Shown one piece after another: positions 1 to 63,890 of a stretch of 64,000 nt of DNA. The notes below the pieces were generated by a model. That model was not told where the DNA came from and did no database searches. It saw only the letters and a program-made list of their open reading frames with translations. Each line of letters starts with the position of its first letter. Position 1 is the stretch's first letter. This DNA is from a virus. Taxonomy: Duplodnaviria; Caudoviricetes. The stretch is taken from the IMG/VR virus record IMGVR_UViG_3300023108_000002; one strand, given 5' to 3'. The translations under genes and the position numbers were made by a program.

Positions 1-3000
1 AAATGCCGATGATAATTCTCAATTATATTCAATTAATGATATTGTAAAAATTGATGGTTCTACTTTTAGACCAGATGGCGAGAGCATTAATGATGATGTA
101 TTCATTAAGATCACAGCTGTTGCGGGTGGAGTTGTTGTGACTGATATTGAAAGCGATGCATATACAACAACTAGTGTAAACGGTACTGGCGCAGTTTGGG
201 ATATTGATACTACACAAGCAACATATCCAAAACTAATATCAGTTTTATTGAGTGATGCAGATTCTAATGGAAATCCATCTCCTACTAGTGGATATGAAGT
301 GGGAGATTCATTTACGATACCTGGCTCAGTTATCAACGGCACTGATGGTGAACACGATCTGACGATTGAAGTTACTGAAGTGGATAATAATGGAAGAATT
401 CACAGTTTCCAAACGCTAGGTCGTCCACAGGGCGGACAGATATCATCATTTACACAAGAAAATTTTCCAACACTACCAGATGCAAAACATGAATTCTATA
501 ATCCAACATTTGTTGCAAACAATCCAAACGGCGGGCCCGTTGGTGTTGGATTAAAATTTTCTGTGAATGTAGATGGAAGTTCATATTCTGTTATAAATCC
601 TTTTGGTGTGTCTCGTGGCTCAGGATATGAGGTGGGAACTACTCTTACTATCAATGGTGAATTATTGGGAGGAACTACTGGTGTAAATGACCTTGTAATT
701 CGAATTGATGATGTAGTGGACAATATTAGAGATGGAGAGTTTATTTCTGGACAAGTAAAAGAGTTGTCTGTTGTTAGTGGAACAGCTGTAAATAAAACAA
801 CATATAGAAATGTAAGTGTACAAAATGGAAAAGGAAGGGGTGCTAGATTTGATGTTGCTGTTAATTCTGGAACCTATTCTATTACAATTCCAGCGGGAAA
901 AGAGGGAACTGGATATTCTATAGACCAAACTCTTACTATTCCTGGCCAAGTTCTTGGTGCCCAATGGATTAAAGATGGATTTGTGGCTGGTTTGGATCAA
1001 GTTGGAGAGTATGCTCTTCACACAGATTTTGGATATGCCAGAACAGATGATGTCGATGAAATTCTATCAAATAGCTTAACAAATAATGAATTGACTTTAG
1101 ATTTTTGGTATTTTAGAAAATCAACATCCATAACTGATTTAAATTCTCCTGGCTCATCAATATTTTCTTTCAATGTTGAAGATGGTGGAGATCAAAAAAC
1201 AATTCTTTGGCAAAAAACAGACGGAACACTTTTATTAGAAGATAGTCTTGGAAATCAATTAACAACTGCACAATTAGAATTTGGAAAATGGCATCATATC
1301 GCTGTTTATTTTAGCGACAATGCAACTACAATATATGTTGATGGAAAAAAAGAAGATACTATTGCGTCCACAAACATGCTTGAATATACTACAGGTACTA
1401 ATTTTTATGTCGGCGCTAGACAAGACGCTGGACCAGACTATGTAATACTTGATTATACTTTAGGTTTCTTTGGTAGTATGAGATTTACCAAAGGACAGAG
1501 ATATGAGGAACAACCAATTAATGGGGATGGTAATATTTTAGTTGAAGATTTGGGAACAGAAAACGCATTATCTGGAAATGGACTAAATCCAATATATGTA
1601 AATCCAGTTCCAAGTTATAGAAATATTAGAAATTCAGTAAAATTGACAAACTCCTTTGTTGCAACAGAAGGACAAACTGTATATGCATTAGATTATGACT
1701 CAACACAACAGATTGTAATTACTATCAATGATTCTCCAACAACCGCATTTTCTGCGACAGATGGATATGAAATTACTTTTGATAGTGGTTTGACTGCTGG
1801 TGATGTTGTAGTTATTTCTTCATATTCTGTTATAAATGATGATCTTGAATATATCATTTACGATTCAAATAATGCAGTTGCTGCGAATACGATCCTTTTA
1901 AGAAGAATGGATTCTGATGGAATCTATTCGTCATATCAACTTCCAGATGGACATTCATTGAGAGTAAAATATTCTGCGCGGCCACCGGCGGGAGTAAGCA
2001 AAACAAGACTTATTACTGGTGGTAGTAATTATATTCGTTATTTGTATGGTTATGTAAAAGACAAAACTATGGATTATAATTCAATTGGTGATGGCGCATT
2101 TTTCTTAGGCAAAGGAAAAACTGTTGGCGGGATTAGTAAAATCAATATTTATGAAAGCAATATTCAAGATCAGTATGATGGGTTTGGAGTTGGTTACGAT
2201 ACACCACCGACTCTAGACCTATCTCAACTTGGAGATGGTACTGCACAAGTAAATGTTTTGACAGGGCCGGTTTGTGTTAGAGAAGGACAATATATTAATG
2301 ATGAAGGTTTCTTATCGGCAGATAATAGAATAACTGACAGTTATTTGTGGCAAGATTATTCATATGTTATCAAAGTTGGTAGATATATTGATGAGTGGAG
2401 AAAAATCGTTAAGAAAGTAGTTCATCCGGCCGGACTAATGATGTTTGGTGAATACTCAATTACTACCACGGCGGAATTGAGAAAGACTGCAAATGCAGCA
2501 TGGAGTCAATTGATATATGAGATTATCAAAAATATCAACTTAAAAGTCAGAAATATGGATGGTTTGGGAAGATGGACATATGGATCTTCATTTCCAATGA
2601 ACACCAATGACTTAAATTCTTATGGGTATAAAATTGTCTATGATAATAGACAACCAACAATAAACAGCACGATTGATGGATTGTATCAGGGCGTGGGTAC
2701 TGGAGAGGTATCTGATGATACAATTGGAGCAGCCACAGTTGACACGGGTTCTGGTAGATATGCACTTTTAGATGAAAATCAAGATGATGCATACCAATGG
2801 AATGTTGTAAAATATATTGCATTGAACTACAAAGATGCGTTTGGAAAAGATTATGAAAATTATTACGAATCAGAACTTATTGGAAATACAGTAACTGTAT
2901 ATGATTTGTCTGATACTGAAATTACAAATGATGAATACATAAACACACGTCCTTGGGCGAAATATCAAATCACTTCAATTGAATTTGATGATGATGCTGA

Positions 3001-61439: not shown

Positions 61440-63890
61440 ATGACGAATTACGCAACTATAAGATATCAACCAGCAGAAGCAACAACGACAACTGTTGCGG
61501 ATATGACTGCTTTGATCGCTGTCACAGGAATGTCTAATGGAGATCAGGCTTTAGTGCTATCAAGTAATAACTTGTTTATGTATTCTGGTACTGGTTGGTA
61601 TAAGATTGCGACAATTCAAAACGATTCTCCAACAGCAATCACTGGAGTGAATGGAACCTACGAACTTGCAACTGACGGTACACCTACTGTAATCACAGCA
61701 GTTTCTACAGACCCTGAAGGGTTTCCTCTTACGTGGACATATTCTACTTCTGGTTTAGGAAGTATTGCTACAGTATCGCAAGCGGATAATGTATTCACAA
61801 TTACACCCAGTACTAATGATGATAATGGAGGAACTTTTACTCTTACAATTAATGCAACTGATGGTGTTAATGGTGCAGTGAGTGCAAATACATCGATAGA
61901 ACTGGAATTTTTTATTGCAAATAGTAATTATACAACTTTATTAGCAACAGCGGTTGATACATCAAGTAACAGTAACATTACGGATTCTTCAACAAATAAT
62001 CATACGATCACAGTATTAGGTGACGCTAACGCCGGCACGTTTAGTCCTTATCGTCATGGCGGATATAGTACATATTTCGATGGAACTGGTGACAATTACA
62101 CTGTGCCTAGTGGCCTTCATCTTGGCACTGGTGATTTTACATTTGAATTTTGGATTTGGCCAGATGAAGATTGGACTAATACTGCCGGTAAAATTTTTAT
62201 GAACACTGAATCTAGTGGCAGTGGCACCACTTGGACTTTTCATGTATCTAATTATAATGGGTATAATGGTTTAACTTTTGGTTATGGTGTATATGGTTCT
62301 TATACTGTAGGAAAATATGTTGATAATTATTGGGTTCCACAGGGTGAATGGACTCATCTAGTCGCTCAAAGAAGAAACGGAACTATAGAAATTTATGTAA
62401 ATGGTGTCAGTCAAACATTGAGTACATATAATGAAAATGGAACTTTTAGTGATAGTGTAAATTTAACAAGCAATCTAACTACAAGAACACTTTTTAATGG
62501 AGCTAAAGCTTATGTTTCAGACCTAAGATTAGTCACTGGTTCATATGTATATGATGGTGATTTTACACCTTCAACTGAAAATATAACAGCAGTAACTAAC
62601 ACTACACTATTAACAAATCAAAATCAGTTTCCGTATCTTGTTGATAATTCACCAAATGCATATACAATTACATCAAATGGTAATACATCAATAAAACCAT
62701 TTAGTAGATATGACAATTTCAAATACGAAACAGCCGTTCATGGCGGGTCTGTATATTTTGATGGGACTGACGATGGATTGATTATTCCAGCAGCTGCTTG
62801 GGATAGAGATGCCGACTACACAGTTGAATGTTGGGCATATGCAATTGGAGGCCTCAGTATTGCATTGTCAAGAAACAGACAAGCCGCTGATGGTGTAGTT
62901 TTCTCTATCGGTGGTAGTTACACAGTATTCTTGGGTATTGGTAGGGATGATGTCAATACATGGGATTTGAATTATACTGGCAGCGTTGATTTAAGATATC
63001 AATGGCATCACCTTGCTTTAACTCACGATGCGAGCGAAAAACGATACAAAATATATGTTGATGGTGTTAATGTTTTCAATGGAACTTCTGCATATCATCC
63101 GGGCAGTTTAAATACTGTTTTTAACATTGGGTGTGGTGATACTATGAATGCTGGCACGACTTCTTATAGTCAAGGATGGATTGCAGATCATAGAATTACA
63201 GATAGTATAGTTTATACTGCAAATTTCACTCCACCAACTGCTCCTCTATCTTCGACTGGATCAGTTTTACACATCCAAGGCACAGATGCTTCCATCATTG
63301 ATAAGTCTCAAAGCACTAATTTACAGCTTATTGGAAACACTACTGGCTCTACAACTCAGGTTAAGTTTGCAGACACTAAGTCAATGTATTTTGATGGTGC
63401 AGGAGATTATATAACAGCAGATCAAATTCCCCTTGGAACAGGAGATTTTACAATTGAAGCGTATACATATTTAGATGCACGACTAACATCTTTCCCATGT
63501 ATTTTTAATAACTATAGCACTTTTTCGGCGGGATCATTGGGCTTGTTTGCTGGACACAACAGTGCAACAACAACAAACTATCAGGTTGCACATAACGGCA
63601 CGGGATTTCCAACGATAAATGCTGGCCCAATTACTTATGATCAGTGGGTACATCTTTGTTTAGAACGGTATAATGGAACAATCACGCTTTATAAAGACGG
63701 AACATCAATAGGTTCATTTTCCAGTACTATCTCACTGAACGGTGTGGGTTCTAATTTTTATATAGGCACAGCAGGCGACAGCATCAGTACAGCGTATTTA
63801 AACGGCTGGATACAAGACTTCAGAGTAACCAAAGGTCTCGCAAGATACACCGCAAACTTTACACCGCCAACAAAACCACTTAAAGGATAA
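61440..63890 (+). CDS. Lectin-rich virion protein with an Ig/cadherin-like domain and three LamG/ConA-like domains (816 aa)
   Basis: DPEG.PLTW.Y Ig-like motif; three S.YFDG.GD...DFT.E.W...W.HL...Y.(N/D)G...D.R.T...Y...FTP units. Confidence 0.85.
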   Translation: MTNYATIRYQPAEATTTTVADMTALIAVTGMSNGDQALVLSSNNLFMYSGTGWYKIATIQNDSPTAITGVNGTYELATDGTPTVITAVSTDPEGFPLTWTYSTSGLGSIATVSQADNVFTITPSTNDDNGGTFTLTINATDGVNGAVSANTSIELEFFIANSNYTTLLATAVDTSSNSNITDSSTNNHTITVLGDANAGTFSPYRHGGYSTYFDGTGDNYTVPSGLHLGTGDFTFEFWIWPDEDWTNTAGKIFMNTESSGSGTTWTFHVSNYNGYNGLTFGYGVYGSYTVGKYVDNYWVPQGEWTHLVAQRRNGTIEIYVNGVSQTLSTYNENGTFSDSVNLTSNLTTRTLFNGAKAYVSDLRLVTGSYVYDGDFTPSTENITAVTNTTLLTNQNQFPYLVDNSPNAYTITSNGNTSIKPFSRYDNFKYETAVHGGSVYFDGTDDGLIIPAAAWDRDADYTVECWAYAIGGLSIALSRNRQAADGVVFSIGGSYTVFLGIGRDDVNTWDLNYTGSVDLRYQWHHLALTHDASEKRYKIYVDGVNVFNGTSAYHPGSLNTVFNIGCGDTMNAGTTSYSQGWIADHRITDSIVYTANFTPPTAPLSSTGSVLHIQGTDASIIDKSQSTNLQLIGNTTGSTTQVKFADTKSMYFDGAGDYITADQIPLGTGDFTIEAYTYLDARLTSFPCIFNNYSTFSAGSLGLFAGHNSATTTNYQVAHNGTGFPTINAGPITYDQWVHLCLERYNGTITLYKDGTSIGSFSSTISLNGVGSNFYIGTAGDSISTAYLNGWIQDFRVTKGLARYTANFTPPTKPLKG

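What the first reader, a model, noticed from the sequence alone, without database searches (positions are those of the whole stretch)
320..63104. Every CCNGG site is flanked so that it contains GGC on one strand: footprint of a GGC/GCC-directed DNA modification
Seen: every Pro-Gly codon pair unavoidably creates CCNGG. My manual scan found about 50 CCNGG sites, and all are CCNGGC (about 31), GCCNGG (about 16, the reverse complement of the same motif) or both (3). Gly after Pro is GGC unless the base before the Pro codon is G, in which case GGA or GGT is used (e.g. aCCTGGC 320, gCCTGGa 14870, gCCAGGt 23317, tCCGGGC 24058 and 63098). Elsewhere the genome prefers GGA/GGT, so only about a third of sites should conform by chance. 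CCGG behaves similarly: nearly all are GCCGG or CCGGC, with ACCGGT at 27241 the one clear exception. CCWWGG sites show no such rule. Established: 7-deazaguanine (preQ0) hypermodification by DpdA-type enzymes can be motif-directed (GA and GGC in coliphage CAjan), and overlapping base modification can block restriction. Inference: this phage modifies GGC/GCC (deazaguanine or methylcytosine) and has purged every CCNGG/CCGG site the modification cannot cover, so protein-coding codons are tuned to an anti-restriction mark. The modifying genes are not in this window.
Basis: partly seen in the sequence, partly recalled or inferred. Interest (0 to 1): 0.85.

Follow-up and report, generated by a model that had tools for sequence, protein, structure and literature searches.

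The report
Restriction sites tucked under GpC marks
In this marine T4-like phage, every unavoidable CCNGG restriction site has been re-flanked by synonymous codon choice so that it overlaps a GpC dinucleotide, the target of the lineage's cytosine-modifying enzyme. This shows how a modification limited to one dinucleotide can still protect a whole genome.

Summary
The window has 50 CCNGG sites: 31 hCCNGGC, 16 GCCNGGd and 3 with both flanks. No site lacks both flanks, against about 47 expected from synonymous-codon shuffles.

The rule holds across a whole clade of marine T4-like phages. Only 1 of 546 distinct sites breaks it. A complete 200-kb relative has 0 of 111 unflanked sites, and the cultured OM43 phage Melnitz has 0 of 72. 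More distant relatives lack the rule.

CTGCAG, CCATGG and CCTNAGG also survive only when a G precedes them or a C follows them.

The likely mark is a C5-cytosine hypermodification, not deazaguanine. Relatives carry CmoX/CmoA (5-carboxymethylcytosine at GC, published in 2025), and Melnitz carries a C5-methyltransferase with a TET oxygenase. A CmoX-like stretch is indexed 128 kb upstream in this same genome. No DpdA/TGT gene was found in the relatives.

Synechococcus phage S-B43, the experimentally proven GpC-modified phage, shows the same flank rule for CCGG (8 of 8).

The nuclease that drives the CCNGG rule is not identified.

The scan has noted the same footprint before, on this stretch (e1-5379417) and on another genome (e1-5410062).

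The parts
320..63103 (.). Field of 50 CCNGG sites, every one GCCNGG and/or CCNGGC (31 with the right flank only, 16 with the left flank only, 3 with both)
   Evidence: 0 unflanked sites against 46.7 expected from synonymous shuffles
320..324 (+). Example of the right-flank form: aCCTGGc, an in-frame Pro-Gly with the Gly codon forced to GGC
14871..14875 (+). Example of the left-flank form: gCCTGGa. The preceding codon ends in G, so the Gly codon is free to be GGA
8271..8275 (+). One of only two out-of-frame CCNGG sites (gCCGGGc, both flanks present)
8844..8848 (+). The second out-of-frame CCNGG site (gCCTGGg, left flank present)
4101..4106 (.). CTGCAG followed by C (CTGCAGc). One of 5 survivors against 30.6 expected, all flanked
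15271..15276 (.). CTGCAG followed by C
31831..31836 (.). CTGCAG flanked on both sides (gCTGCAGc)
50853..50858 (.). CTGCAG flanked on both sides (gCTGCAGc)
52896..52901 (.). CTGCAG followed by C
26092..26097 (.). CCATGG followed by C. There are 3 survivors against 9.4 expected, none unflanked
42602..42607 (.). CCATGG flanked on both sides
44984..44989 (.). CCATGG followed by C
10809..10815 (.). CCTNAGG preceded by G
   Evidence: The same rule holds in G001: 4 sites, none unflanked
34356..34362 (.). CCTNAGG preceded by G
27242..27245 (.). Truly unshielded CCGG (aCCGGt), an exception to the weaker CCGG rule
43793..43796 (.). Truly unshielded CCGG (aCCGGa)
17445..17448 (.). CCGG inside tCCGGGc. 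The GpC abuts CCGG but does not overlap it, though it does shield the overlapping CCGGG. The sites at 24059 and 63099 are the same
3938..5608 (+). gp8 baseplate-wedge gene, used to place the window in a T4-like phage and to collect the clade
   Evidence: (PF09215, E = 2.6e-20)

Best explanation
This T4-like marine phage lineage modifies the C5 position of cytosine in GpC dinucleotides after replication. In this genome and most relatives the enzymes are probably a CmoX carboxymethyltransferase fed by a CmoA carboxy-SAM synthase, possibly followed by an amide ligase. In Melnitz they are a C5-methyltransferase plus a TET oxygenase.

A restriction site whose first C is preceded by G, or equivalently whose last G is followed by C, carries one modified cytosine inside the site and one directly abutting it. 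That is enough to block cleavage.

Selection by nucleases has therefore acted in two ways. It removed every vulnerable site that synonymous changes can remove. Where the protein sequence forces the site (Pro-Gly = CCNGG), it fixed either GGC as the Gly codon or a G at the end of the preceding codon.

Shown here: the footprint, its clade distribution, compensatory switching between the two flanks, the presence of the enzyme genes in relatives, and the same footprint in a phage with a proven GpC modification.

Inferred: that virion DNA of this phage is modified at GpC, that the adduct blocks the nucleases, and that the CCNGG-cutting nuclease belongs to the hosts.
For: (1) The footprint. HCCNGGD observed against expected is 0/46 in the window, 0/134 in the complete relative G001 and 0/75 in Melnitz. 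It is 117/112 in HTVC008M and 292/293 in S-B43. Across the clade, 546 distinct CCNGG contexts include 1 unflanked site. gp8 relatives at 41% identity or less lack the rule.

(2) The shield is GpC, not GGC. CTGCAG survives only as GCTGCAG/CTGCAGC in every member that depletes it (45 of 45 distinct sites, chance about 1e-24). CCATGG, CCTNAGG and CTTAAG behave likewise.

(3) Compensatory evolution. At orthologous conserved Pro-Gly sites, the window's right-flank state corresponds to a left-flank state in relatives 27 times and to a both-flank state 19 times. It never corresponds to an unflanked state.

(4) The genes. G001 encodes a 407-aa C5-methyltransferase that matches the SpCmoX structure 8YF3 at E = 3.9e-144. 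It keeps the SPPC motif and the Arg that binds the carboxymethyl group. Near it, after a 182-aa ORF, lies a CmoA-like gene (TIGR00740 over its full length). 80 IMG/VR loci carry the CmoX gene, and almost every locus long enough to show its neighbour also carries the CmoA-like gene. All 54 loci where the motif was readable have the Arg. The index look-up finds 16 of 180 CmoX words in a stretch of this same genome, 128 kb upstream, where note e1-5379369 describes such an operon. No N4/N6 cytosine methyltransferase and no TGT was found in G001 or Melnitz.

(5) A published anchor. SpCmoX modifies C in GC motifs and blocks HhaI (PMC12783734). In S-B43, CCGG is 8 against 185 expected, and all 8 survivors are GCCGG/CCGGC.

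(6) Melnitz pairs its C5-methyltransferase with a Tet_JBP oxygenase. Such phage methyltransferases prefer GpC[C/T], and some do not touch GpCA (PMC8256090). That matches flank GCC and GCT shielding while the inner GCA of CTGCAG does not.

(7) A consistency check of the logic. G001 has a Dam-type methyltransferase and does not avoid GATC (839/882). Melnitz has none and purges GATC (23/358).

(8) In marine myovirus-like genomes, SMRT sequencing reports modified RGCY, CCNGG and GGWCC motifs (PMC8919816). These sites are therefore contested in that environment.
Against: No chemical or kinetic evidence of modification exists for this phage.

Its own CmoX operon could not be read. No genome is held. 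Its presence rests on a word-index match (16 of 180 words) and an unchecked note.

AGCT contains GpC in a GCT context, yet it is depleted in all genomes, modified or not (ratio 0.36-0.56), and strongly so in some clade members. Either the adduct does not block every enzyme or AGCT depletion has another cause.

HTVC008M has no C5-methyltransferase, yet it shows a partial flank bias for CCGG and CTGCAG. Some flank bias can therefore arise without this gene.

The CCNGG rule is invariant across a clade whose other avoided sites vary. That is odd for strain-specific host restriction.

No CCNGG nuclease was identified in any phage or host.
Confidence: 0.72

Rival explanations
1. One reading: a GGC/GCC-directed mark, such as DpdA-installed 7-deazaguanine as in coliphage CAjan, covers the sites.
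For: Every shielded CCNGG and CCGG necessarily contains GCC or GGC. The three tCCGGGc sites would be covered by a mark on the first G of GGC, but not by a GpC overlap.
Against: CTGCAG, CTTAAG and similar sites are shielded by GCT, which contains neither GGC nor GCC. No TGT/DpdA fold was found in the complete relative G001, Melnitz or S-B43. Those genomes do carry C5-cytosine enzymes with published GpC specificity.
Confidence: 0.04
2. The same GpC shield operates, but the CCNGG-cutting nuclease is encoded by the phage lineage itself, or by an obligate companion, and is used to destroy host DNA. The phage genome would be immune through purging plus the shield.
For: The CCNGG rule is invariant across a deeply diverged clade (1 exception in 546). 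Avoidance of CCGG, CTGCAG, GGWCC and GATC switches on and off between members. G001 and Melnitz share several small ORFs of unknown function and an SNase homologue that HTVC008M and S-B43 lack.
Against: No restriction-endonuclease family was detected in G001 or Melnitz (PF09019 and PF09562), although those searches had no positive control. The 182-aa nuclease-like ORF next to CmoX is optional. Other marine myoviruses appear to methylate CCNGG and GGWCC (PMC8919816), which fits a widespread host threat. 8 of 20 CmoX-bearing loci with at least 5 sites lack the rule.
Confidence: 0.1
3. No modification is involved. The restricting enzymes simply have extended specificity (HCCNGGD, HCTGCAGD and so on), so flanked sites are not targets.
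For: It would reproduce the counts for any single site.
Against: It requires unrelated enzymes for at least five different sites to share the same H...D flank requirement. The rule co-occurs with GpC-type cytosine-modifying genes, and it appears for CCGG in S-B43, whose GpC modification is proven. GGCC and GGSCC are relieved from avoidance only in the clade.
Confidence: 0.03
4. The pattern is a codon-pair, translational or mutational bias rather than selection on DNA sites.
For: Weak flank biases exist in HTVC008M, which lacks the enzyme. AGC-containing words are depleted in all five genomes.
Against: The Gly codon depends on the third base of the codon before Pro (31 of 31 against 2 of 17). 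The rule is symmetric under reverse complement, and G001, which has genes on both strands, has no unflanked site anywhere in its genome. Control words that start with CC show no such effect. Out-of-frame sites are purged.
Confidence: 0.02

Closest known systems
CmoA/CmoX/CmoY system of Synechococcus phage S-B43 (Yang et al., Nat Commun 2025, PMC12783734; SpCmoX structure 8YF3)
   Same: The in-clade complete relative G001 has a CmoX orthologue (59% identity, SPPC motif, Arg at position 350) next to a CmoA-like gene. The published target is C in GC. S-B43 itself shows the same flank rule for its avoided CCGG site (8 of 8).
   Different: The paper does not describe any genomic footprint. S-B43 has no CCNGG rule (292 unflanked sites). 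The genes are not in this window. The final adduct in this phage (free carboxymethyl or an amide) is unknown.
TET-associated phage C5-methyltransferases with GpC[C/T] preference (Burke et al., PNAS 2021, PMC8256090)
   Same: Melnitz, which obeys every rule seen here, has a C5-methyltransferase followed by a Tet_JBP oxygenase. The shielding contexts inferred here (GCC and GCT, but not the inner GCA of CTGCAG) match the published GpC[C/T] preference.
   Different: The Melnitz enzymes have not been tested. The window's lineage appears to use the CmoX chemistry instead. The later preprint from that field (10.1101/2023.12.21.572611) doubted that a GpC-limited mark could protect a genome.
Classical restriction-site (palindrome) avoidance in phage genomes (general knowledge)
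   Same: Out-of-frame CCNGG, and also GGWCC, GATC, CTGCAG and CCGG, are purged as in ordinary site avoidance.
   Different: Here, unavoidable sites are not tolerated as they stand. They are moved under a modification motif by choice of the flanking base, with compensatory switching between the two flanks.
Blocking of restriction enzymes by overlapping Dam/Dcm/CpG methylation (laboratory knowledge)
   Same: The principle is the same: a methyltransferase with a different, shorter motif protects a site only where the two motifs overlap.
   Different: That effect is known as a cloning nuisance. Here it is an evolved, genome-wide design enforced on about 550 independent sites.
DpdA/preQ0 modification at GA and GGC in coliphage CAjan
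   Same: It is a motif-limited phage DNA modification.
   Different: No TGT-fold gene was found in relatives. The GCT-context shields do not fit GGC. In CAjan, GA is also modified, which would protect CCNGGA, yet that form is absent here.
Modified motifs RGCY, CCNGG, GGWCC and GGHCC in marine myovirus-like genomes by SMRT sequencing (Hiraoka et al., NAR 2022, PMC8919816)
   Same: The same environment, the same virus type and the same contested sites. RGCY contains GpC[C/T].
   Different: Those signals were read as m4C from dedicated methyltransferases. In a genome like this one, a motif finder would also report CCNGG as modified merely because every copy overlaps a modified GpC. This was not tested.

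Membership tests
CmoA/CmoX cytosine C5-carboxymethylation system | A C5-methyltransferase fold with the catalytic SPPC motif | tested here: met
   Met in relatives only. The G001 ORF hits PF00145 at E = 4.7e-57 and contains GSPPC. All 80 IMG/VR homologues contain GSPPC. For this genome there is only a 16 of 180 word match.
CmoA/CmoX cytosine C5-carboxymethylation system | Arg in place of the motif-X Asn (R350 of SpCmoX), which binds the carboxymethyl group | tested here: met
   G001 has ERIGRMVPP aligned to the ERVGRMVPP of 8YF3. The Arg is present in all 54 loci where the motif was readable. Melnitz has Leu there, so it is not a CmoX.
CmoA/CmoX cytosine C5-carboxymethylation system | An adjacent CmoA (carboxy-SAM synthase) | tested here: met
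   TIGR00740 matches over its full length at E = 6e-27 (G001) and 4e-36 (L115), but below the equivalog cut-off. It follows CmoX in nearly all loci long enough to show it. It is absent from Melnitz and from the window.
CmoA/CmoX cytosine C5-carboxymethylation system | The genes are present in the genome that holds this window | tested here: inconclusive
   No genome is held. The index look-up places a CmoX-like stretch 128 kb upstream, and note e1-5379369 describes the operon. Metagenome contigs 99.9% identical to the window reach only about 87 kb upstream.
CmoA/CmoX cytosine C5-carboxymethylation system | 5-carboxymethylcytosine or its amide is present in virion DNA at GC | not testable with these tools
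   This needs LC-MS or nanopore/SMRT data on virion DNA.
GpC-directed shield (sequence footprint) | Avoided C-first palindromes survive only with a 5' G or a 3' C, whatever the second base is | tested here: met
   The survivor counts are CCNGG 50 of 50, CTGCAG 5 of 5, CCATGG 3 of 3, CCTNAGG 2 of 2 and CCGG 50 of 55 in the window. Across the clade CTGCAG is 45 of 45.
DpdA / 7-deazaguanine DNA modification | A TGT-fold DNA transglycosylase (DpdA), with preQ0 synthesis genes | tested here: not met
   PF01702 is absent from G001 (complete), Melnitz, S-B43 and HTVC008M, while all 14 control genomes gave a hit. The window's own genome was not testable.
DpdA / 7-deazaguanine DNA modification | The footprint is explained by a G-centred GGC motif | tested here: not met
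   GCT-context shields (GCTGCAG, and GCTTAAG in Melnitz) contain no GGC or GCC.
TET-associated GpC[C/T] C5-methyltransferase systems | A C5-methyltransferase adjacent to a TET/JBP dioxygenase | tested here: met
   This is met for Melnitz only: gene 5 hits PF00145 and gene 6 hits PF12851 at E = 3.6e-11, above the cut-off. It was not seen in G001, which has CmoA instead.

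The most novel reading that the evidence does not exclude
The CCNGG rule is invariant across the whole clade, while every other avoided site comes and goes. This may be because the CCNGG-specific nuclease is carried by these phages themselves and used against host or competitor DNA. The GpC hypermodification plus codon-level re-flanking would then serve as self-immunity. That would be a restriction-modification arrangement in which the modification and restriction motifs differ and the genome sequence bridges the gap.
Probability: 0.08. Interest if true: 0.85.

Novelty: new variant of a known kind. Interest (0 to 1): 0.68.

Why it matters
GpC-limited, post-replicative cytosine hypermodification (CmoX or TET type) is common in marine phages. 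The field has doubted that a dinucleotide-limited mark can give genome-wide protection (preprint 10.1101/2023.12.21.572611).

This footprint shows how it could. The genome is co-adapted to the mark. Removable sites are purged, and unavoidable ones are slid under a GpC by synonymous changes.

It also gives a sequence-only read-out of three things:
- whether a phage carries a GpC-type modification;
- which contexts the mark covers;
- which restriction specificities the lineage faces. CCNGG is always avoided, while GGWCC, CCGG, CTGCAG, CCATGG and GATC are avoided only in some members.

It points to a cultured phage (Melnitz on OM43) and a characterised one (S-B43) where the prediction can be tested at the bench. 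It also warns that motif finders may report CCNGG as a modified motif merely because every copy overlaps a modified GpC.

Tried and rejected
- **The window's own genome:** none is held.
- **Megablast to cultured phages:** no match.
- **Linking the window to its CmoX operon:**
  - An exact-pattern scan of metagenome contigs found nothing, although the pattern is present in JGI contigs fetched by another tool.
  - Records behind the encoding-contig loci cannot be searched.
  - The longest identical contig (150.8 kb) ends about 41 kb short of the operon.
  - Walking there would exceed the look-up cap.
  - One protein look-up had no record.
- **Long in-clade fragments G002-G005:** they lack the whole replication module (no gp46, no gp43). 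Their lack of a methyltransferase therefore says nothing.
- **Restriction-endonuclease families in the phage genomes:** searches with PF09019 (EcoRII-C) and PF09562 (RE_LlaMI) found nothing, but they had no positive control.
- **Genes shared by rule-obeying genomes:** ORFs shared by G001 and Melnitz but absent from HTVC008M and S-B43 gave no site-specific nuclease. They gave only an SNase homologue, a deformylase, a cell-wall hydrolase, a 2OG oxygenase and four unknown small ORFs.
- **RGCY as the shield motif:** rejected. The base before the shielding G is T or C in about half of the window's sites (read from the contexts).
- **Cyanophage identity for G001:** rejected, because it has no psbA.
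- **Supplementary tables of PMC8919816:** not held.

Full report
**What the window is.** All long ORFs lie on the plus strand. One is a T4 gp8 baseplate-wedge protein (PF09215), followed by giant structural proteins. The closest cultured phages share at most 32% identity in gp8. Metagenome contigs 99.9% identical to the window come from estuarine and salt-marsh samples. The window is the baseplate and tail-fibre module of an uncultured T4-like myovirus with 36% G+C. It contains no CmoX or CmoA gene.

**The observation.**
- A regex count gives exactly 50 CCNGG sites: 31 hCCNGGC, 16 GCCNGGd, 3 with both flanks and none with neither.
- 48 of them are in-frame Pro-Gly.
- In 1000 shuffles that permute synonymous codons within each gene, unflanked sites average 46.7 (sd 4.3, minimum 33).
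- Total CCNGG is 50 against 64.9 expected. Pro-Gly sites cannot change under the shuffle, so about 17 out-of-frame sites are expected, yet only 2 exist.
- GGC is 16.4% of Gly codons. It is used at 31 of 31 Pro-Gly pairs when the base before Pro is not G, and at 2 of 17 when it is G.
- G precedes Pro-Gly in 35% of cases, against 12.5% before Pro in general.
- Ten control words that begin with CC but end differently show no comparable excess of a preceding G (z at most about 4, against 14-26 for CCNGG).

The rule depends on the third base of the preceding codon and is symmetric under reverse complement. It therefore acts on DNA, not on translation.

**It is a clade trait.**
- A gp8 search of IMG/VR returned 77 loci. 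Every locus with at least 45% gp8 identity has no unflanked CCNGG, with one exception at L021:11245. Loci with 41% identity or less have mostly unflanked sites and almost no GGCC.
- Counted by unique 31-nt context, the clade has 546 CCNGG sites, 1 of them unflanked.
- The complete 200,733-bp relative G001 has 111 sites and none unflanked, against 134 expected. The cultured OM43 phage Melnitz has 72 and none, against 75 expected. Pelagibacter phage HTVC008M (117/112) and Synechococcus phage S-B43 (292/293) show no such rule.
- At orthologous conserved Pro-Gly positions, the window's right-flank state is matched in relatives by the left-flank state 27 times and by the both-flank state 19 times. 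It is never matched by an unflanked state. That is the expected path of compensatory change.

**The motif is GpC, not GGC/GCC.** A G before CC, or a C after GG, always spells GCC or GGC, so CCNGG and CCGG cannot separate the two readings. Other sites can.
- CTGCAG is depleted in the window (5 against 30.6 expected), and all 5 survivors are GCTGCAG or CTGCAGC.
- In the 21 clade members that deplete CTGCAG, all 45 distinct survivors are flanked. In members that do not deplete it, the flanks are random.
- CCATGG follows the rule (window 3 of 3 flanked, G001 6 of 6). So do CCTNAGG (G001 4 of 4, window 2 of 2) and CTTAAG (Melnitz 3 of 3).
- The shield is therefore a G directly before the first C of the site, in the GCC and GCT contexts.
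- The inner GpC of CTGCAG, which reads GCA on both strands, does not protect.
- Sites that cannot be overlapped at their edge and have no inner GpC, such as GGWCC, are simply eliminated in many members: 1 against 123 expected in G001 and 0 against 59 in Melnitz. GGSCC, which has an inner GCC, is enriched 2.3-2.8 fold.
- GGCC is avoided in the outgroup and is free or enriched in the clade.

**The likely writer of the mark.**
- G001 carries one PF00145 gene, between gp46 and gp45. It matches PDB 8YF3 at E = 3.9e-144. 8YF3 is SpCmoX, the cytosine C5-carboxymethyltransferase of S-B43 (PMC12783734).
- The G001 gene keeps the SPPC motif and the Arg that replaces the motif-X Asn. A gene matching CmoA (TIGR00740) over its full length lies just downstream, after a 182-aa ORF.
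- 80 further IMG/VR loci carry CmoX at 74-97% identity, with the CmoA-like gene beside it in almost every locus long enough to show it.
- The paper shows by nanopore sequencing and oligonucleotide assays that SpCmoX needs a GC motif and that the product blocks HhaI.
- Melnitz has a more distant C5-methyltransferase (36% identity, Leu at the Arg position, no CmoA). It is followed by a Tet_JBP oxygenase. This is the other known phage system. Its methyltransferases prefer GpC[C/T], and some do not act on GpCA (PMC8256090). That fits the contexts inferred above.
- G001 and Melnitz have no TGT/DpdA gene and no N4/N6-type methyltransferase.
- G001 has a Dam-type enzyme and does not avoid GATC, whereas Melnitz lacks one and purges GATC. 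This supports the general logic.
- The outgroup genome G006 (247 kb, 97% complete, no rule) has no C5-methyltransferase.
- For the window's own genome, the scan's index finds 16 of 180 CmoX words in a stretch 128 kb upstream. An unchecked first-reader note (e1-5379369) describes a ParB-like, Asn-synthetase-like, C5-methyltransferase and CmoA operon there, between gp46 and gp45. That is the position it has in G001.

**An anchor in an experimentally characterised phage.** S-B43 does not face CCNGG pressure, but it purges CCGG (8 against 185 expected). All 8 survivors are GCCGG or CCGGC (chance about 1e-5). The same flank shield therefore appears where GpC modification has been demonstrated.

**What remains inferred or unexplained.**
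- The nuclease behind the CCNGG rule is unknown. I favour host ScrFI/SsoII-type restriction. SMRT data on marine myovirus-like genomes report modified CCNGG, GGWCC and RGCY motifs (PMC8919816), which suggests these sites are widely contested. 8 of 20 CmoX-bearing loci with enough sites lack the CCNGG rule, as expected if the shield and the threat are separate.
- The invariance of the rule across the clade, in contrast with the variable avoidance of CCGG, CTGCAG, GGWCC and GATC, leaves room for a phage-borne nuclease. No candidate was found.
- AGCT is depleted in all five genomes whether modified or not.
- HTVC008M shows a partial flank bias without a C5-methyltransferase.
- Neither of the last two points is explained.

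**Comparison and novelty.** The modification systems are known (2021 and 2025). Site avoidance is classical. Blocking by overlapping methylation is laboratory lore. None of the papers I read on these systems describes the combination seen here. That combination is codon-level re-flanking of unavoidable sites so that a dinucleotide-limited mark covers them, with compensatory switching, across a large marine clade and two different chemistries. One of those papers explicitly doubts that a GpC-limited mark can protect a genome. The scan itself has noted the footprint twice before: e1-5379417 on this stretch and e1-5410062 on another genome.

Noticed in passing
L178:4010-8090 (Melnitz MZ577097 genes 5-8): The cultured OM43 phage Melnitz has a C5-methyltransferase (SPPC motif, Leu at the CmoX Arg position). 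It is followed by a Tet_JBP oxygenase, a 427-aa protein of unknown function and a P-loop kinase-like protein. This looks like an unrecognised TET-type GpC hypermodification cluster. Its paper mentions only 'a methylase'.
   Followed up: partly
L115:3839-5185 and L178:82-1131: A RimK-like ATP-grasp ligase sits between regA and the DNA polymerase, just upstream of the methyltransferase gene, in CmoX-bearing contigs and in Melnitz. In L115 it is fused to a Zn-protease domain. It could be an alternative ligase acting on the carboxymethyl handle, or it could be unrelated.
   Followed up: no
Whole genomes of the window's relatives: AGCT, and AGC/GCT-containing words in general (AGCC/GGCT, GCTA/TAGC, AAGC/GCTT), are depleted 2-3 fold in all five genomes compared. 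This holds whether or not they carry a GpC-modifying enzyme.
   Followed up: partly
HTVC008M NC_020484 (loci L180 and L185-L189): This phage has no C5-methyltransferase, yet 41 of 51 CCGG and 9 of 11 CTGCAG are G/C-flanked. TCGA (2 against 189 expected) and CGCG (1 against 33) are almost absent. Some of the CTGCAG contexts are repeated sequence.
   Followed up: partly
G001 21434-22141 (locus L082:1434-2141): G001 has a Dam-type N6-adenine methyltransferase and does not avoid GATC. Melnitz has none and keeps 23 GATC against 358 expected.
   Followed up: partly
L088:10353-10820 (G001 168353-168820): A staphylococcal-nuclease homologue (PF00565) is shared by G001 and Melnitz (57% identity) but absent from HTVC008M and S-B43. 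It may be a host-DNA-degrading nuclease.
   Followed up: no
L080:7490-8038 (G001): A 182-aa ORF lies between CmoX and CmoA. It is present in G001 and L107 but absent from 96-97% identical relatives (L092, L093, L148).
   Followed up: partly
window 63890-64000 and L200:13557-13670: A 150.8-kb metagenome contig that is 99.9% identical to the window ends within 8 bases of the window's end. Other contigs also break in the last tail-fibre genes. This suggests a genome terminus or a hypervariable region.
   Followed up: no
window, whole: GGAGG and related Shine-Dalgarno-like words are strongly depleted inside genes (18 against 84.5 expected). GATC, GTAC, ACGT and TTAA are each depleted 1.5-3 fold.
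   Followed up: no
This was not examined.
   Followed up: no
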